Source: Escherichia phage REP4
DNA length: 64,000 bases
Strand: one strand, 5' to 3'
Sequence record: OQ174503.1
Each line of letters starts with the position of its first letter. Positions within the stretch are counted from its first letter, which is position 1. Under the pieces are notes generated by a model that searched no databases, was not told the origin of the DNA, and was given only the letters and a program-made list of their open reading frames with translations. This document shows, in pieces, positions 2,964 to 60,958 of this stretch. A program made the translations under genes and the position numbers.

Positions 2964-3180
2964 TGTAAACTGATTTTTTCAACTTTCTTACTTCACTACG
3001 TAATTGACGATTTAGCTCATCTTTAACTTCTGAATCAATGCCTTTCATTCTACGCCATTTATCTGAGCGAAAAATGTTTTCAACCATATCTTTATGACTT
3101 ACACCATCAGGAGCTTTACGCTTTCCGAAATAGTCATAATCACGTACTTTTAAATCTTTACGACGATACGTTTTACCCAT
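2887..3180 (-). CDS. hypothetical basic protein
   Basis: Start refined to internal ATG (MGKTYRRKD...), which overlaps the stop of the upstream 58-aa ORF. Confidence 0.45.
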   Translation of the reverse strand: MGKTYRRKDLKVRDYDYFGKRKAPDGVSHKDMVENIFRSDKWRRMKGIDSEVKDELNRQLRSEVRKLKKSVYIDDDFDYNTSQRVAKRKSNECYRYS

Positions 3181-3349
3181 GGAGTTTAATTTCCTTAGCA
3201 ACTGAACTAAATACAGCACGATCACAAATCATGTGTTTGTTCCATTTAAGTACAGTATAATGAACATCTAGATCATCTACTGCTGTAACAATAACAATAT
3301 GTCCGTTAACACGATAATACTGATCCCTTTTAATCTCTTTATCAACCAT
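3173..3349 (-). CDS. hypothetical small protein (58 aa, not in ORF track)
   Basis: ATG at 3349 with GAGGAA ribosome-binding site, directly downstream of an early promoter; reads MVDKEIKRDQYYRVNGHIVIV... Confidence 0.4.
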   Translation of the reverse strand: MVDKEIKRDQYYRVNGHIVIVTAVDDLDVHYTVLKWNKHMICDRAVFSSVAKEIKLHG

Positions 3350-3506: not shown

Positions 3507-3830
3507 TTAGTCTTCTATGATATCTCTATCATATCCAAGTGAAATGAGAGTTTCTTTGAAGTGTTTAATGTTCTTTTGTCTAGAATCATTAATGAAAATG
3601 ACTGGATAACGAATGTTAAGAGATGTGAATCCAGCGCGTTTAGCAAGAGATACAATCAGTGGACGATCATACTCAATCTTACCATTATTTGTAAGAACTT
3701 TATAGAAAGTAAAAGGAGCATTGAGCTCCTTTAGAAGTTTTGTAACTGATTGACATCCAGGACAACGACCTACTTCATCTGGAATTCCATAGACTTCAAT
3801 CTTATTCTTTAAGTTCGAGTTTTGTTCCAC
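3507..3830 (-). CDS. nrdH: glutaredoxin-like protein (NrdH-like redoxin)
   Basis: CPGC redox motif after a beta-strand (KIEVYG...GRCPGCQ); sits next to nrdG as in T4. Start uncertain: proposed GTG at 3830 preceded by AAGGA; the 150-aa ORF-track version overlaps the upstream gene. Confidence 0.5.
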   Translation of the reverse strand: MEQNSNLKNKIEVYGIPDEVGRCPGCQSVTKLLKELNAPFTFYKVLTNNGKIEYDRPLIVSLAKRAGFTSLNIRYPVIFINDSRQKNIKHFKETLISLGYDRDIIED

Positions 3831-4113
3831 GAGAAATAATTCCTTGATAAGCCCAGTATGGCGGGTTAACAGAATCATCGCCAGAATTTTCTTCAGGAAA
3901 ATAAACCTGGATAACAAATCCAGATGCGTCAAAGGTAAAATACACCGTAGGTAATTCACCTAACAATTCAGCACGGTTATTAATTTCTTCGAGTTCTCGT
4001 TCTCGTCCAGCCCAAAAACTAGGATTTAGACTACATTCATAGAAATAATAGTCATTACCGAACATATCAAAACCCTTCCAACTCTCTACCACATACCGCT
4101 CAAAACTAATCAT
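3802..4113 (-). CDS. hypothetical protein
   Basis: 103-aa ORF between nrdG and the redoxin. Confidence 0.5.
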   Translation of the reverse strand: MISFERYVVESWKGFDMFGNDYYFYECSLNPSFWAGRERELEEINNRAELLGELPTVYFTFDASGFVIQVYFPEENSGDDSVNPPYWAYQGIISRGTKLELKE

Positions 4114-8607: not shown

Positions 8608-8865
8608 TTATTCCTTAATTCCTAGTACTTGTTTAAAAGTCTCGTCATAATCAAGACTTTGGCCCGTTTGTTCTTTATGTTTGTATATAATATCACTTAC
8701 TTCTGATAGCATATTTTTATATGAACGAGTTAAAGCAGATTTAAGCACGCTGTATCTATCAGGAAATTTACCATGTTCATTATAATAAGCTATTGCTAAT
8801 TCACGGACTGCTTTTTCAGCAATCTCCATATATTCTTTACGCTTTTTCATTTTCTTCTCGGTCAA
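8608..8865 (-). CDS. hypothetical protein (nrdC.1 position)
   Basis: 85-aa ORF. Confidence 0.5.
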
Positions 8866-9154
8866 ATCGATGTTTACAATGACGACATTTATAACGAAGA
8901 TTACTAGTCTGCCAATGAACTAATTGTACCTGTTCAGTACCACATTTTGGGCAGTTCGGAACATTCTTAGAAGCCCTTTCGCGGCGTTCAACCATAGCCA
9001 TAATAGCATCCCAGGCTGGAGGTTTAAAATCTAAATCGTCACAACCATGAATCTTTCCACGCATTTCTAAATCGTCTTCTTCACCATCCATAATAATTTT
9101 AATTAGACTGGAATTACTTGAAGCTGCAATATCTTCTAATAAGCGCTTTTTCAT
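8837..9154 (-). CDS. zinc-ribbon protein (nrdC.2 position)
   Basis: 105 aa with CPKC...CRHC four-cysteine motif. Confidence 0.5.
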
Positions 9155-10083
9155 TTCAATACCTCAATAGCATTTCGTAAACCGTCAGCTTTTGCATTCA
9201 GAGCTTTTAATGATTTAGTTTGTTCTGCAATCCGGGCTTCGACTTCTTTCAGACGAGATTTGAGATATTCGCGTTCTTCTCTTAAGTTATCAACTTTTTC
9301 TGCTTTAGGCTCTTTAATAGGCTTAGGCTTATACTCATTAGGGTTCTTCAACTTAATTTGAATGTGAGAACTGTATAACATTGAACCATTATCTTCGGTT
9401 TCATCATACGTTTCTACTACGTCCATGATTCTTAACATCATGCGAAGTTTATAAGACAGCGAACGAATGGTTTTGTTGCGCTTATTAATTTCTTCGGCTT
9501 TCATGGTACCGAGATTACGTGAGTAGTAATAAGGAACCTGGATATCAATTGATAATGATGCGTTACCATTACCGGTTGGTTTGAATACTGCAGTAACCCA
9601 ATCTTTAACATGAACTTTATTTGTACGATCATCGCCGCCTGTGAATAATTTACGTGAATGTTTAAAAAGCATATTCACTTGGTTATTGAATTCACAAGCA
9701 AATTTATCAGCAAATTTAGTTTCAGGAATGGTAGATAACCAATCAGCTAAATGGGTCTTTTTAACATCGTTAACAATAGTAAATTCAACCAAATCAGTTA
9801 TAGATGTCGCAGATTTAATGAAGCTTGGCTTCATAAAGTTTTTAATGTTATCGCGAGCTACAGTAGAAGATAACATACGAGAACGTTTAAACCATTCAAG
9901 CAAATTGCCTAACGAATGAGAATAAGCGTTTTGAGTATCTTTACAGATATGATTTTCCTGGCCAACATATTGAAGGAAATCACGAAGAATATTATTGATT
10001 ACTGCTCTGTGCCCGATTTGATAATTACGGTGTTTAGTAATAAGACTGTCAAAATAATCAATATAATGTTTACGAGTTTTCAT
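9151..10083 (-). CDS. coiled-coil protein, paralog family member 1
   Basis: 310 aa; PKP-rich linker then about 40-aa C-terminal heptad coiled coil ([43 protein letters not shown]). Confidence 0.55.
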   Translation of the reverse strand: MKTRKHYIDYFDSLITKHRNYQIGHRAVINNILRDFLQYVGQENHICKDTQNAYSHSLGNLLEWFKRSRMLSSTVARDNIKNFMKPSFIKSATSITDLVEFTIVNDVKKTHLADWLSTIPETKFADKFACEFNNQVNMLFKHSRKLFTGGDDRTNKVHVKDWVTAVFKPTGNGNASLSIDIQVPYYYSRNLGTMKAEEINKRNKTIRSLSYKLRMMLRIMDVVETYDETEDNGSMLYSSHIQIKLKNPNEYKPKPIKEPKAEKVDNLREEREYLKSRLKEVEARIAEQTKSLKALNAKADGLRNAIEVLK

Positions 10084-15612: not shown

Positions 15613-15640
15613 CCGTTTTGTGAAAAAAAAAAAAATTTGA

Positions 15641-15669
15641 AATAAAAAAAAGGGAGCCCGAAGGCTCCC
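15641..15669 (-). terminator. hairpin terminator (GGGAGCC-UUCG-GGCUCCC + U8)
   Basis: Perfect 7-bp GC stem with tetraloop followed by a long T-run on the transcribed strand, just after the stop of the nucleotidyltransferase gene. Confidence 0.65.
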
Positions 15670-17145: not shown

Positions 17146-17667
17146 CTATCCTTTCATTGAAGGTGTAACAGTTGTTAAATACTTAATCATAGCTTCAGCT
17201 TCTGATTTTGATAATGAAATTTCTCCATTGTTTTGACGAATAGAAATAAAATCCGGATGACGATCACCACCAGCCTTTAAAACACACATATAAGTATCAG
17301 TTTCATCTTCAATATTTGAAATGATTGAAGCAGTTCCACATGAATGTGGTTTTTGATAAATCAATGCAGCTTTTCTTCCACCGTTTGACTGTTCATAAAC
17401 TTTTAACACATCAAACAAATCACTTCTTTTATCAATAGCTAAGATGTTGTTTTCATCTTCAATGTTAAATCCTTCGGATACTTCATAAAGTGTCACCCAT
17501 AAATCACCTATATCGATAGTAGCATTTCCTTTTCCACGACTTTCAAGAATATGACAAATTTTCTTGATTTCGTCATAACTCATTTTAATAATATCATCTC
17601 CTTGAATAAGGAAGATGTCATTTTTAAATTCAACACGAATTAAACCGCTTTCACTTGAAATAAACAT
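17146..17667 (-). CDS. hypothetical protein, paralog A
   Basis: 173 aa; C-terminal motif SKSEAEAMIKYLTTVTPSM shared with the next ORF. Confidence 0.5.
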   Translation of the reverse strand: MFISSESGLIRVEFKNDIFLIQGDDIIKMSYDEIKKICHILESRGKGNATIDIGDLWVTLYEVSEGFNIEDENNILAIDKRSDLFDVLKVYEQSNGGRKAALIYQKPHSCGTASIISNIEDETDTYMCVLKAGGDRHPDFISIRQNNGEISLSKSEAEAMIKYLTTVTPSMKG

Positions 17668-19218: not shown

Positions 19219-19243
19219 AAAAAAGTCTCCCGAAGGAGACTAA
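19219..19243 (-). terminator. hairpin terminator (AGUCUCC-UUCG-GGAGACU + U-run)
   Basis: 7-bp stem with tetraloop followed by a T6 tract on the minus strand after the stop of the 19246-19632 gene. Confidence 0.6.
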
Positions 19244-19245
19244 TG

Positions 19246-19632
19246 TTATTCGAGGGAAAGAAGATATTTACTCTGGTAAAACATTCCAGTAATATCATCT
19301 ATCGTGCTTTGAATGGCTGGAGGCATTTCTTTGTAAATGCTATTAGATTGGTCTAGTATGCGATCAATCATTTTAATTGTGTCGGTAGGAAGTTTACTAG
19401 CATCTGGAATTGAAGGTGTGTATTTTCTACCAGAATACCCCAAATACTGCTCACCAAATTTATCAATCAAATCTGGCAACTCAGAGAAAATAAAATCGTA
19501 TGCCTTGTGTCTAGCATAACTTTTAGTTTCAAAATGCGCAGAATGAAAATAAGCTTGCGCAGCCATTAATAAACCTAAGTATTCATCTGCCTTTGAAGGT
19601 TTTCCACTTTGTGAAAAGTCGCTGAATTTCAT
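19246..19632 (-). CDS. hypothetical protein
   Basis: 128-aa ORF; its ATG overlaps the reconstructed rI stop (ATGA). Confidence 0.5.
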
Positions 19633-19923
19633 TCAGTCTCCAATTTAATGTTCATAATTCTAGCGTATGATTGTGCCATCTCCGCGCCTCGTTCTATACA
19701 TTCAAAATCAGAAGAACACGGGTCATTTTTTATAAGTCGTTCGCATAAAACTATAGAACTGTTCAGATGATTCTACGCTTTTATTTTCAAAAAGCATATA
19801 AACGTGTCTAATACCAGATTCCATAAATTTATCAAAATGAGGATCGACATTCGCTTCAATTGGCGGAGATAAAGCAAACGCTAATCCTAGCATGGCAAAT
19901 AGTGCCGTTGCTTTTAAGGCCAT
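19629..19923 (-). pseudogene. rI: rI lysis-inhibition regulator (antiholin), disrupted by +1 frameshift in an A6 run
   Basis: N-terminal 66 codons (MALKATALFAMLGL...FYSFMRTTYK) stop after the run at 19726-19731; the +1 frame continues [32 protein letters not shown] to the expected stop. Span is 295 nt, one more than 3 x 98. Confidence 0.7.
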
Positions 19924-19935
19924 AAAGGCCTCCTA

Positions 19936-20148
19936 TCATTTTTGTCCTGTATTTACTTTATGCCGATGCACGGCCTTAACTTTATCAAGGTATTTTTCAA
20001 AATTTCGCAATCTAGTATAGTCTGCCGGAGATTGGTTAAGTGATACTTCTCGACGCAAAGCTGAAATGATATTTCCAACTTCCCTACGAATTTCATCTAA
20101 TTGAAGAACAGTAAGATTGCGAAGTTGCTTTTCAGTTAATTGTAGCAT
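19936..20148 (-). CDS. hypothetical protein
   Basis: 70-aa ORF between tk and rI. Confidence 0.45.
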
Positions 20149-20190: not shown

Positions 20191-20772
20191 CTAACCGAGC
20201 TTTTTAGTTAATTCATTCCAATGTTTTCTACACAAAGAAACATAAATTTCATCACCAATACAGATTTGATTACCTTCTTTAACTGGTGTTCCATCTTCCA
20301 TTAATCGAGCTGTCATAATCGCTTTTTTACCGCAATGACAAACTGCCTTTAGTTCAATAAGTTTATCTGCAATCGCCAAAAGTTCTTTAGAACCTTCAAA
20401 TAATTTTCCAGCGAAATCAGTCCTTAGACCATAAGCCATAACAGGAACATTATATGTATCGACAATTCGGCTTAATTGATGTACCTGTTCAGTTTTTAAA
20501 AACTGAGCTTCATCTACAAATACACAATGAATATCTTTTTGTGCTTCAGCCCATTTATAGAACTCAAAAATATCCATATCATCCGTAATAATATTCGCTT
20601 CCTGCTTAATTCCAATGCGAGAAACGACTTCACAGACAGAATCACGAGTATCAATAGCAGGCTTAAGAACTAATACACCCATTCCGCGTTCTTTATAATT
20701 ATGCGCAGCAGTCAAAAGAGAAGCAGATTTTCCAGCATTCATTGCTGCATAAGTAAAAATTAAACTCGCCAT
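20191..20772 (-). CDS. tk: thymidine kinase
   Basis: 193 aa; P-loop NAGKSASLL and C-terminal Zn-binding cysteines; matches T4 Tk length. Confidence 0.9.
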   Translation of the reverse strand: MASLIFTYAAMNAGKSASLLTAAHNYKERGMGVLVLKPAIDTRDSVCEVVSRIGIKQEANIITDDMDIFEFYKWAEAQKDIHCVFVDEAQFLKTEQVHQLSRIVDTYNVPVMAYGLRTDFAGKLFEGSKELLAIADKLIELKAVCHCGKKAIMTARLMEDGTPVKEGNQICIGDEIYVSLCRKHWNELTKKLG

Positions 20773-58978: not shown

Positions 58979-60958
58979 ATGACTTTATTATCTCCGGGCA
59001 TTGAGCTCAAAGAAACTACGGTTCAAAGCACCGTGGTTAATAACTCTACTGGTACAGCAGCTTTGGCCGGTAAATTCCAGTGGGGTCCTGCTTTTCAGAT
59101 TAAACAGGTTACAAATGAAGTAGATTTAGTTAATACTTTTGGTCAACCTACAGCTGAAACTGCTGATTATTTTATGTCTGCAATGAATTTCTTACAATAT
59201 GGAAATGATTTACGAGTTGTGCGCGCTGTCGATAGAGATACCGCTAAAAACTCATCTCCGATTGCTGGTAATATTGAATACACTATTTCTACCCCAGGTA
59301 GTAACTACGCGGTTGGAGATAAAATCACAGTTAAGTATGTTTCAGAAGACATTGAAACGGAAGGTAAAATTACCGAAGTAGATGCTGATGGAAAAATTAA
59401 GAAAATTAATATTCCTACCGCAAAAATTATCGCTAAAGCGAAAGAAGTCGGTGAATATCCAGCATTAGGTTCTAACTGGACCGCGGAAATTTCTTCGTCT
59501 TCCTCTGGTTTAGCTGCAGTAATAACTCTTGGAAAAATTATTACTGATTCTGGTATTTTATTAGCTGAAATTGAAAATGCCGAAGCTGCTATGACAGCGG
59601 TTGAATTTCAAACAAATCTTGAAAAATATGGAATTCCAGGAGTAGTAGCTCTTTATCCAGGCGAGTTGGGCGATAAAATCGAAATTGAAATCGTATCTAA
59701 AGCTGACTACGCAAAAGGCGCTTCTGCATTACTCCCAATTTATCCAGGTGGCGGAACACGCGCATCTACTGCAAAAGCAGTGTTTGGATATGGACCACAA
59801 ACTGATTCACAATATGCTATTATAGTTCGTCGCAATGATGCTATTGTTCAAAGCGTTGTTCTTTCAACAAAGCGTGGTGAAAAAGATATTTACGATAGTA
59901 ACATCTATATTGATGACTTTTTCGCAAAAGGTGGTTCAGAATATATTTTTGCAACTGCACAAAACTGGCCAGAAGGCTTCTCTGGAATTTTAACTCTGTC
60001 TGGCGGATTATCATCAAATGCTGAAGTAACAGCAGGAGATTTGATGGAAGCTTGGGACTTCTTTGCTGACCGTGAATCCGTTGATGTTCAGTTGTTTATT
60101 GCTGGCTCTTGTGCCGGTGAATCTTTAGAAACAGCATCTACTGTCCAAAAACATGTTGTTTCAATCGGGGATGCTCGTCAGGATTGCTTAGTATTATGCT
60201 CACCACCGCGTGAAACTGTAGTTGGAATTCCTGTAACTCGTGCTGTCGATAACTTAGTCAATTGGAGAACTGCAACTGGTTCATACACTGATAATAACTT
60301 TAATATCAGTTCAACCTATGCAGCAATTGATGGTAACTACAAATATCAGTATGACAAATATAATGATGTAAATCGTTGGGTTCCATTAGCAGCTGATATT
60401 GCTGGTTTATGCGCAAGAACTGATAACGTTTCTCAGACTTGGATGTCTCCAGCTGGTTATAATCGCGGCCAGATTCTTAACGTTATTAAACTTGCTATTG
60501 AAACTCGCCAGGCTCAGCGCGACCGTTTATATCAAGAAGCTATCAACCCGGTAACCGGTACAGGTGGTGATGGTTACGTATTGTATGGTGATAAAACAGC
60601 TACTTCTGTTCCTTCTCCATTTGATCGTATTAACGTTCGTCGTCTGTTTAATATGTTGAAAACGAATATCGGACGTAGTTCAAAATATCGTTTGTTCGAA
60701 TTAAACAACGCGTTTACTCGTTCATCATTCCGCACAGAAACTGCCCAATACTTACAGGGAATTAAAGCTCTCGGTGGAATTTATGAATATCGTGTAGTTT
60801 GCGATACAACAAATAACACTCCGTCAGTAATTGATAGAAATGAGTTTGTTGCAACATTCTACATCCAACCGGCTAGAAGCATTAACTACATTACCTTGAA
60901 CTTCGTAGCAACTGCTACTGGTGCAGATTTCGATGAGTTAACTGGTCTTGCAGGTTAA
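58979..60958 (+). CDS. 18: tail sheath protein
   Basis: 659 aa. Confidence 0.95.
   Translation: MTLLSPGIELKETTVQSTVVNNSTGTAALAGKFQWGPAFQIKQVTNEVDLVNTFGQPTAETADYFMSAMNFLQYGNDLRVVRAVDRDTAKNSSPIAGNIEYTISTPGSNYAVGDKITVKYVSEDIETEGKITEVDADGKIKKINIPTAKIIAKAKEVGEYPALGSNWTAEISSSSSGLAAVITLGKIITDSGILLAEIENAEAAMTAVEFQTNLEKYGIPGVVALYPGELGDKIEIEIVSKADYAKGASALLPIYPGGGTRASTAKAVFGYGPQTDSQYAIIVRRNDAIVQSVVLSTKRGEKDIYDSNIYIDDFFAKGGSEYIFATAQNWPEGFSGILTLSGGLSSNAEVTAGDLMEAWDFFADRESVDVQLFIAGSCAGESLETASTVQKHVVSIGDARQDCLVLCSPPRETVVGIPVTRAVDNLVNWRTATGSYTDNNFNISSTYAAIDGNYKYQYDKYNDVNRWVPLAADIAGLCARTDNVSQTWMSPAGYNRGQILNVIKLAIETRQAQRDRLYQEAINPVTGTGGDGYVLYGDKTATSVPSPFDRINVRRLFNMLKTNIGRSSKYRLFELNNAFTRSSFRTETAQYLQGIKALGGIYEYRVVCDTTNNTPSVIDRNEFVATFYIQPARSINYITLNFVATATGADFDELTGLAG

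What the first reader, a model, noticed from the sequence alone, without database searches (positions are those of the whole stretch)
19629..19923. rI (lysis inhibition / antiholin) is split by a single extra A in a homopolymer run
On the minus strand the rI reading frame runs MALKATALFAMLGL...FYSFMRTTYK and then meets TAT AAA AAA TGA, an A6 run at plus 19726-19731. The +1 frame immediately continues [32 protein letters not shown] and ends in an ATGA overlap with the next gene. Together these reconstruct the 97-aa RI protein, so one extra A truncates RI before its periplasmic holin-binding domain. If real, this phage should show the rapid-lysis (r) plaque phenotype; if not, it marks a homopolymer sequencing error.
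Basis: partly seen in the sequence, partly recalled or inferred. Interest (0 to 1): 0.6.

Follow-up and report, generated by a model that had tools for sequence, protein, structure and literature searches.

The report
Frameshifted rI antiholin gene, T4-like phage
A T4-like phage (Escherichia phage REP4) has one extra A in a short A-run of its lysis-inhibition gene rI, which cuts the protein from 97 to 66 residues; this is an ordinary, classical kind of "rapid-lysis" mutation (or, less likely, a sequencing slip), not a new biological system.

Summary
On the minus strand, rI runs 19923..19723 (66 codons + TGA). The run at 19726-19731 is A6, where T4, G50, HY01, ime09 and 11B_SA_NWU have A5. The next frame encodes RI residues 66-97 exactly and ends in the ATGA overlap with rI.-1. 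The window is Escherichia phage REP4, whose GenBank record already annotates this 66-aa product.

The interpretation needs one correction. The truncation is not "before" the holin-binding domain. The product keeps the signal peptide and residues 25-66, including all seven mapped holin-contact residues. It loses the Cys69-Cys75 loop and the last helix.

Real mutation is favoured over sequencing error. rI is the only annotated gene in 64 kb broken by a 1-nt indel, although the window has 361 homopolymer runs of 5 or more. The same run is A6 in an unrelated Logan contig and A4 in RB55/RB59. Several other rI-null alleles exist in public assemblies.

This fits classical slippage plus selection or picking of r plaques. 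Loss of lysis inhibition is likely but untested, and only reads or a plaque assay can settle it. Novelty and interest are low.

The parts
19723..19923 (-). Truncated rI ORF: 66 codons plus premature TGA (19725..19723). It is identical to GenBank WBY53229.1 'lysis inhibition [Escherichia phage REP4]'.
19726..19731 (-). A6 run (T6 on the + strand), read as codons K65-K66. Relatives have A5 (K65-N66). This is the site of the +1 insertion.
19629..19727 (-). Out-of-frame remainder of rI. It encodes RI residues 66-97 (NDPCSS...KLETE) plus the original TGA (19631..19629). It contains C69, C75, G79, Y86 and the last helix.
19852..19923 (-). Codons 1-24: cleavable signal peptide ending in IEA, with cleavage before N25 as shown for T4 RI. 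Intact.
19929..19934 (-). AGGAGG ribosome-binding site of rI, 5 nt upstream of the ATG. It lies within a small hairpin (AGGCC-TTTAT-GGCCT, 19917-19931) that is conserved in T4.
19246..19632 (-). rI.-1 (DUF5856, 128 aa), intact. Its ATG overlaps the original rI stop (ATGA) and it has its own GGAG upstream. It now lies 90 nt beyond the premature rI stop.
19936..20148 (-). rI.1 (70 aa), intact, the upstream neighbour of rI.
20191..20772 (-). tk (thymidine kinase, 193 aa), the synteny anchor for the order tk - rI.1 - rI - rI.-1 seen in T4.
19224..19241 (-). Terminator-like hairpin followed by a T-run just after rI.-1, marking the end of the transcription unit. G50 has an annotated terminator at the equivalent place.

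Best explanation
The window is part of Escherichia phage REP4, a Tequatrovirus. Its rI gene encodes the periplasmic antiholin RI, which blocks holin T and so imposes lysis inhibition (LIN) when infected cells are superinfected. The gene carries a genuine +1 A replication-slippage mutation (A5 to A6, Streisinger type) at codons 65-66.

Translation stops after Lys66. After signal-peptide cleavage, the product is a 42-residue fragment (25-66). It holds helices 1-3 and the holin-contact residues, but lacks the Cys69-Cys75 loop and the 18-residue C-terminal helix. Such a fragment of a small four-helix domain is most likely misfolded or degraded, so the phage should be LIN-defective, with a rapid-lysis 'r' plaque type.

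The allele probably became fixed in the sequenced stock because r variants arise frequently and give larger, clearer plaques that are picked or enriched during isolation and propagation.

Shown: the sequence change, what is retained and what is lost, the recurrence at this run, and the cleanness of the rest of the assembly. Inferred: that the change is in the phage rather than in the reads, that the fragment is non-functional, and that selection or picking fixed it.
For: (1) Five window proteins are exact matches to REP4 proteins WBY53211, 53213, 53220, 53221 and 53229. The database record carries the same 66-aa CDS.

(2) Against the closest genome, G50, over the alignable part of the 64 kb, the rI insertion is the only uncompensated 1-nt indel inside an annotated CDS. 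The other single-base indels are intergenic, or paired within 14 nt at a gene end. Of 156 G50 ORFs with a window counterpart, rI is the only annotated gene truncated this way. The window has 361 homopolymer runs of 5 or more, so the assembly is not generally homopolymer-noisy.

(3) The same run varies independently elsewhere. A Logan contig from SRR23924988 has A6. It differs from phage 11B_SA_NWU (A5) by only that base plus 1 SNP in 3,695 nt containing 25 runs of 5 or more. RB55 and RB59 have A4 (75-aa product, AIT75019.1 and AIT75291.1). RB55 differs from T4 by that base plus 1 SNP in 2,236 nt. The three haplotypes differ at SNPs 4-12 nt from the run, which argues for independent events.

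(4) Other rI-null alleles exist in public assemblies: a -T at codon 42, a TTA to TGA nonsense change at codon 18, an rI::rI.-1 deletion between GATAAATTT repeats, and a frameshift whose product diverges at the T5 run (inferred from the protein).

(5) All nucleotide differences between the window's rI and its relatives, on both sides of the run, are synonymous in the RI frame, so the break looks recent.

(6) Literature: r mutants arise at 1e-3 to 1e-4 and give larger, sharper plaques, and serial transfer of RB69 selected rI mutations in 6 of 6 sequenced mutants (PMC6832632).

(7) The AF2 model of RI has helices at 28-45, 48-52, 54-66 and 72-89 and matches crystal chain 6psk_R (TM 0.82). The conserved cysteines, G79 and the aromatic residue at 86 lie in the lost part.
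Against: No reads were available, so an isolated consensus error at this homopolymer cannot be excluded.

All mapped interface-1 residues survive in the fragment, and single substitutions G79A and Y86A/L in the lost part did not affect LIN. Complete loss of function is therefore an inference, not a demonstration.

No description of REP4 plaque morphology was found.

The A6 allele was absent from IMG/VR (0 hits, against 5 with A5) and from JGI metagenome contigs. No A6 record appeared in either 101-nt search of the phage collection: the identity ceiling in both searches equals that of an A5 record and every listed row is A5, but only 30 of 388 and 12 of 306 rows were listed. The allele is rare.
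Confidence: 0.65

Rival explanations
1. Sequencing or assembly artefact: the phage really has A5 and an intact 97-aa RI, and the extra A is a homopolymer miscall in the consensus.
For: The change is a 1-nt length change in a homopolymer, the classic error class. The downstream frame is perfectly preserved, which is also what an artefact would give. For 11B_SA_NWU the deposited genome has A5 while a Logan assembly of a near-identical phage has A6. That could reflect ambiguous reads at this site, if the run SRR23924988 belongs to that phage. The platform used for RB55/RB59 (A4) was not determined here, so a homopolymer error there cannot be excluded.
Against: This is the only such change in a CDS across 64 kb with 361 runs of 5 or more. 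In the other two genome pairs the rI run is likewise the only homopolymer difference. Random errors would not repeatedly pick the run whose disruption gives a selectable phenotype. A5/A6 runs are short for systematic errors on current platforms (general knowledge).
Confidence: 0.2
2. The mutation is real but lysis inhibition is not abolished. Either the secreted 25-66 fragment still binds holin T, or a little full-length RI is made by recoding. Recoding could be a +1 ribosomal slip of tRNA-Lys at AAA-UGA-C, giving RI N66K, or an RNA-polymerase slip from A6 to A5.
For: All seven interface-1 residues and the signal peptide are retained. Point mutations in the lost segment (G79A, Y86A/L) were neutral. 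The stop is UGA followed by C after a Lys codon, a context in which +1 slippage is conceivable (prfB-like; from general knowledge).
Against: There is no Shine-Dalgarno-like stimulator upstream and no significant RNA structure around the site (z = -1.55). A -1 slip does not restore the frame (direct reading). A6 is shorter than the runs known for efficient transcriptional slippage (general knowledge). Relatives are plainly in frame with A5, so this is not a conserved recoding site. Loss of one of four helices and the disulfide from a 73-residue domain is unlikely to leave a stable protein.
Confidence: 0.1
3. The rI A-run is an evolved contingency locus: a reversible A5/A6/A4 switch that lets T4-like phage populations hedge between LIN-proficient and rapid-lysis states.
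For: Length variants A4, A5 and A6 occur on three different haplotypes. Contingency loci at homopolymers of 6 or more, including an A6 run in rIIA that affects the r phenotype, have been proposed for T2/T4, with about 10,000-fold higher reversion than a point mutant (bioRxiv 10.1101/2025.10.21.683753). The A6 mutant allele would itself revert readily.
Against: The wild-type run is only A5, below the threshold used in that work. Frameshifted alleles are rare: a handful of contigs against 758 + 598 contigs for the two intact proteins. rI is also inactivated by non-run lesions, which fits simple loss-of-function selection rather than a dedicated switch. No data on reversion or fitness are available.
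Confidence: 0.05

Closest known systems
Bacteriophage T4 rI (antiholin RI, ANTIH_BPT4; PDB 6PSH, 6PSK, 6PX4, 6PXE)
   Same: The gene order is the same (tk - rI.1 - rI - rI.-1), as are the signal peptide and its cleavage motif. Residues 25-97 of the repaired product are 100% identical to the crystallised T4 domain.
   Different: One extra A at codons 65-66 gives a 66-aa product lacking residues 67-97, with N66K. The signal-peptide region has the AFALSPP haplotype rather than T4's SFVLSPS.
Classical T-even rapid-lysis (r) mutants in rI (e.g. T4 r48) and Streisinger slippage frameshifts at A-runs (rII hot spots)
   Same: It is a loss-of-function lesion in rI made by a +1 change in a homopolymer. 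The expected phenotype is large sharp plaques and no LIN (PMC6832632; mechanism from general knowledge).
   Different: The phenotype was not observed here. This allele sits in a natural isolate (REP4) rather than a laboratory T4 stock. Whether this run is a mapped hot spot in the published T4 rI spectra could not be checked, because Burch et al. 2011 is not held.
rI of phages RB55 and RB59 (AIT75019.1, AIT75291.1; KM607002 CDS 59233-59460)
   Same: The frameshift is in exactly the same run of the same gene, and is annotated as a shortened 'lysis inhibition regulator'.
   Different: It is a deletion (A4) rather than an insertion. The product is 75 aa ending ...YKMTRALLILNV, on a T4-identical haplotype.
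Phage contingency loci (Gomez, Barrick and Waters 2025, bioRxiv 10.1101/2025.10.21.683753), e.g. the A6 run in T4 rIIA
   Same: It is a homopolymer inside an r gene whose length change toggles the reading frame, in the same group of phages.
   Different: The wild-type run is A5, not 6 or more. No measurement of mutation or reversion rate exists for this site. Nothing shows that the run is maintained for mutability.

Membership tests
T4-like antiholin RI (Pfam PF24205) | Profile match above the curated threshold | tested here: met
   Truncated ORF 51.5 bits, repaired ORF 82.2 bits, cut-off 27.
T4-like antiholin RI (Pfam PF24205) | N-terminal cleavable signal peptide with the IEA|N site | tested here: met
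   ...LSPPIEA|NVDP... is present. Cleavage after A24 was shown experimentally for T4 RI (PMC8385771). Cleavage in REP4 itself was not tested.
T4-like antiholin RI (Pfam PF24205) | Holin-contact (interface 1) residues F30, M34, Y42, S53, E54, F56, Y57 | tested here: met
   All seven are present in the 66-aa ORF (numbering checked).
T4-like antiholin RI (Pfam PF24205) | Complete periplasmic domain in frame: conserved C69/C75, G79, aromatic at 86, C-terminal helix | tested here: not met
   These residues are encoded only in the +1 frame after the premature TGA. The helix is predicted at 72-89.
T4-like antiholin RI (Pfam PF24205) | Conserved genomic context tk - rI.1 - rI - rI.-1, with the rI stop overlapping the rI.-1 start | tested here: met
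T4-like antiholin RI (Pfam PF24205) | Imposes superinfection-dependent lysis inhibition by binding holin T | not testable with these tools
   This needs lysis curves or plaque assays.
Phage contingency locus (hypermutable simple-sequence repeat) | Homopolymer of 6 or more inside an ORF | tested here: inconclusive
   The criterion is met by the mutant allele (A6) but not by the wild-type A5 of relatives.
Phage contingency locus (hypermutable simple-sequence repeat) | Independent length variants of the same tract among related genomes | tested here: met
   A4 (RB55/RB59), A5 (the large majority) and A6 (REP4, SRR23924988 contig) occur on different haplotypes.
Phage contingency locus (hypermutable simple-sequence repeat) | Elevated, reversible indel rate within populations, and a fitness benefit for both states | not testable with these tools
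   This needs read-level data and competition experiments.
Programmed +1 ribosomal frameshift (prfB-like) | Shift-prone codon followed by a poor-context stop | tested here: inconclusive
   AAA-UGA-C is present, but re-pairing of tRNA-Lys on AAU is imperfect. This is an inference only.
Programmed +1 ribosomal frameshift (prfB-like) | Upstream Shine-Dalgarno-like stimulator, and conservation of the shift site in relatives | tested here: not met
   There is no SD-like sequence in the 30 nt upstream. All relatives are in frame with A5.

The most novel reading that the evidence does not exclude
The short A-run at rI codons 65-66 is a recurrent, reversible on/off switch for lysis inhibition in T4-like phages. 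That would make it a contingency locus in the antiholin gene itself, generating A4/A5/A6 subpopulations that hedge between high-yield delayed lysis and rapid lysis.
Probability: 0.08. Interest if true: 0.5.

Novelty: already known. Interest (0 to 1): 0.15.

Why it matters
If real, REP4 is a natural-isolate T4-like phage that probably lacks lysis inhibition. That affects how it should be titred, how it performs in lysis-curve assays, and how it behaves as a therapeutic or biocontrol phage, with faster clearing and smaller bursts at high density. It also reminds annotators that a 66-aa 'lysis inhibition' CDS is a broken gene.

The survey done here shows that rI is disrupted again and again in public T4-like genomes. 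The same A-run is hit in both directions. This is a useful caution when inferring LIN proficiency from gene presence, and a modest data point for the current discussion of homopolymer 'contingency loci' in phages. It opens no new biological question.

Tried and rejected
(1) Exact and degenerate searches for the A6 allele gave 0 hits in IMG/VR viral contigs and in JGI metagenome contigs, while the A5 pattern gave 5 IMG/VR hits.

(2) The key primary papers are not in the held library: Burch 2011 (rI mutational spectrum), Paddison 1998, Krieger 2020, Moussa 2012 and 2014, and Tran 2005. I could therefore not check whether this run is a published hot spot, or whether C-terminal truncations of RI have been tested.

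(3) No paper describing REP4 or its plaques was found.

I used a 91%-identical database RI instead.

(5) Recoding was considered and set aside. There is no significant RNA structure and no stimulatory SD. A -1 slip gives the wrong frame.

(6) Recombinational transfer of the A6 allele between phages was considered for the Logan contig. It was rejected because SNPs 4-12 nt from the run differ between the two A6 haplotypes, and each A6/A4 allele sits on a haplotype otherwise identical to an intact relative. The REP4-specific neighbouring protein is found in different SRA runs (SRR33249075/6) than the second A6 contig.

(7) The promoter scan of the region found fewer sigma-70-like sites than shuffled sequence did, and was not informative.

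Full report
**What is in the sequence**

On the minus strand an ORF starts at 19923 behind an AGGAGG ribosome-binding site. It reads MALKATALFAMLGLAFALSPPIEANVDPHFDKFMESGIRHVYMLFENKSVESSEQFYSFMRTTYKK and stops at TGA 19725..19723. The codons around the stop are TAT AAA AAA TGA. The run of six A's is T6 on the plus strand at exactly 19726-19731.

Translating 19727..19629 gives [32 protein letters not shown]. That stop overlaps the ATG of the next gene as ATGA.

**What the gene is**

- Pfam PF24205 (T4-like antiholin) matches the 66-aa ORF over profile positions 1-65 of 96 (51.5 bits). It matches the repaired 97-aa sequence over positions 1-93 (82.2 bits; cut-off 27).
- Residues 25-97 of the repaired protein are 100% identical to the T4 RI periplasmic domain crystallised alone and with holin T (6PSH, 6PSK, 6PX4, 6PXE).
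- The neighbours are tk, rI.1 upstream and rI.-1 (DUF5856) downstream, as in T4, HY01, ime09 and G50.

**Which phage it is**

About 500 Tequatrovirus records match at 95-99% identity. The closest in the phage collection is vB_EcoM_G50, at about 97.6%. Five window proteins are exact matches to proteins of Escherichia phage REP4 (WBY53211, 53213, 53220, 53221, 53229), a 166,772-nt genome. Two of these are REP4-specific among named NCBI records. GenBank already annotates the 66-aa product as 'lysis inhibition'.

**The lesion**

Alignments with HY01, ime09, T4, G50 and 11B_SA_NWU show a single inserted A. All five relatives have A5 and an intact 294-nt gene. In both 101-nt searches of the phage collection, the best identity equals what an A5 record would give, and every listed row spans 100 nt of the record against 101 nt of the query, that is A5. 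Only 30 of 388 and 12 of 306 rows were listed, so this does not exclude an A6 record further down. The remaining differences between the window's rI and its relatives are all synonymous in the RI frame, on both sides of the run. The break therefore looks recent.

**Real mutation or sequencing error?**

Reads are not available, so this cannot be proven. Three lines of evidence favour a real change.

1. *The assembly is otherwise clean.* Against G50, over the alignable part of the 64 kb, the rI insertion is the only uncompensated 1-nt indel in an annotated CDS. The other single-base indels are intergenic, or paired within 14 nt at a gene end. In an ORF-by-ORF comparison, 156 G50 ORFs have a window counterpart. 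Seven were flagged. Apart from rI, these are unannotated frames, start-codon differences, or a mosaic junction. rI is the only annotated gene truncated by a frameshift. The window contains 361 homopolymer runs of 5 or more.

2. *The same run is altered independently elsewhere.* A Logan contig from SRR23924988 carries A6 and encodes the identical 66-aa protein, but on a different haplotype. It differs from phage vB_EcoM_11B_SA_NWU (A5, intact rI) by only that A plus one SNP in 3,695 nt that contain 25 runs of 5 or more. RB55 and RB59 carry A4, giving a 75-aa product (AIT75019.1, AIT75291.1). RB55 differs from T4 by that base plus one SNP in 2,236 nt. SNPs 4-12 nt from the run distinguish the haplotypes, so these are separate events rather than one allele spread by recombination.

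3. *rI is a recurrent target of other lesions in public assemblies.*
   - Deletion of a T at codon 42, in a 166,904-nt ENA scaffold and in Logan contigs from five samples.
   - A TTA to TGA nonsense change at codon 18.
   - A deletion between GATAAATTT repeats that fuses rI to rI.-1.
   - A frameshift product that diverges at the T5 run (inferred from the protein sequence).
   - Two further frame-fused variants.

The two intact RI proteins are seen on 758 and 598 contigs, so disrupted alleles amount to roughly 1% of observations. This figure is rough, because contig counts are not independent.

This pattern is what classical genetics predicts. r mutants arise at 1e-3 to 1e-4 and make larger, sharper plaques. 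Serial transfer of RB69 selected rI mutations in six of six sequenced short-latent-period mutants (PMC6832632). Random read errors would not repeatedly choose the run whose disruption has a selectable, visible phenotype. I put a real mutation at about 0.8 and an artefact at about 0.2.

**What the truncation does**

[quoted passage not shown] Mutagenesis in a phage-free reconstitution showed that the physiologically relevant holin interface uses F30, M34, Y42, S53/E54, F56 and Y57 (PMC11413866). All of these are upstream of the stop and present in the REP4 product. The truncation is therefore inside the holin-binding domain, after all mapped contact residues, not before the domain.

What is lost is the conserved Cys69/Cys75 pair, G79, the conserved aromatic residue at 86 and the last helix. 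An AlphaFold2 model of a 91%-identical RI has helices at 28-45, 48-52, 54-66 and 72-89 (mean pLDDT 71.6). It superposes on crystal chain 6psk_R (TM 0.82, rmsd 2.3 A).

A 42-residue, three-helix fragment of an already short-lived periplasmic protein is most likely unstable. That is an inference. The neutral G79A and Y86A/L substitutions show that individual residues in the lost part are dispensable. Loss of lysis inhibition is thus likely but not demonstrated.

**Recoding**

- A -1 slip gives the wrong frame (...KKMTRVLLILNV*).
- A +1 slip of tRNA-Lys at AAA-UGA-C would give full-length RI with N66K.
- There is no Shine-Dalgarno-like stimulator upstream and no significant RNA structure (z = -1.55).
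- Relatives are simply in frame. This is not a programmed site, and any leak would be small.

**Polarity**

rI.-1 has its own GGAG upstream of its ATG. It is followed by a terminator-like hairpin at 19241..19224. Premature termination 90 nt upstream could reduce any translational coupling. This was not tested.

**Comparison with what is known**

This is a loss-of-function allele of the well-studied T4 rI gene, made by the textbook homopolymer-slippage mechanism. The same run is also hit in the deposited RB55 and RB59 genomes. A recent preprint proposes that homopolymers of 6 or more in T2/T4 act as contingency loci. It shows that an inserted A in the A6 run of rIIA reverts about 10,000 times more often than a point mutation (10.1101/2025.10.21.683753).

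The A4/A5/A6 series at rI is compatible with that idea. However, the wild-type run is only A5, disrupted alleles are rare, and rI is also inactivated at non-run sites. Simple mutation plus selection or plaque picking is therefore the better-supported reading.

**Verdict**

The feature is ordinary and of a known kind. Its interest is low, apart from practical relevance for anyone using REP4 and as one data point on recurrent rI inactivation.

Noticed in passing
L012 (KM607002.1 RB55) 3734-3961; also RB59 protein AIT75291.1: RB55 and RB59, otherwise T4-identical in this region, carry the opposite frameshift (A4) in the same rI run. It gives a 75-aa product that is annotated as a normal 'lysis inhibition regulator membrane protein'.
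   Followed up: yes
L006 (Logan SRR23924988_4805) 3001-3201 versus L021 (OR062527.1): A Logan re-assembly contig has A6 in rI, while the near-identical deposited genome vB_EcoM_11B_SA_NWU has A5. There are only 2 differences in 3.7 kb. It is unknown whether the run belongs to that phage, a sibling isolate or a mixed lysate.
   Followed up: partly
L014/L016 (576-868), L015 (about 570-868), L018 (701-1009): Other rI-null alleles occur in public assemblies. They are a 1-nt deletion at codon 42 (GTTTATATG to GTTTAATG) in an ENA metagenome scaffold of 166,904 nt and in Logan contigs from 5 samples, a TTA to TGA nonsense change at codon 18, and a deletion between GATAAATTT direct repeats fusing rI codons 1-33 to the C-terminal part of rI.-1.
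   Followed up: partly
window 19917-19931: A small GC-rich hairpin (AGGCC TTTAT GGCCT) spans the end of the rI Shine-Dalgarno sequence and the start codon. It is conserved in T4, G50, RB55 and 11B, and may modulate rI translation initiation.
   Followed up: no
window about 15630-15660 (intergenic): A long A-run (A13) and an adjacent A8 are present where G50 has shorter runs (6-nt and 2-nt insertions relative to G50). This is the longest homopolymer in the window and is a length-variable intergenic tract.
   Followed up: no
window 8853-9600 versus L004 9503-10320: This is a mosaic or divergent junction relative to G50, with several small compensating indels. The gene equivalent to G50_00085 has a different C-terminus (105 aa against 129 aa). 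It looks like recombinational mosaicism rather than a frameshift.
   Followed up: no
protein look-ups: Short contigs labelled Enterococcus faecalis (MFP91..., WP_4114...) encode T4-like rI.-1 and tk fragments. Several 'Shigella sonnei' and 'E. coli' assemblies contain ~164-170-kb T4-like contigs. These are probably phage contamination or carry-over in bacterial assemblies.
   Followed up: no
protein cluster of the 66-aa RI: The truncated RI proteins (66 aa and 75 aa) are filed in a 90%-identity cluster whose representative is an unrelated 173-aa Tequatrovirus protein. The window's own copy of that protein is at 17146-17667. This appears to be a clustering artefact of the database, so cluster sizes for these proteins are not meaningful.
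   Followed up: no
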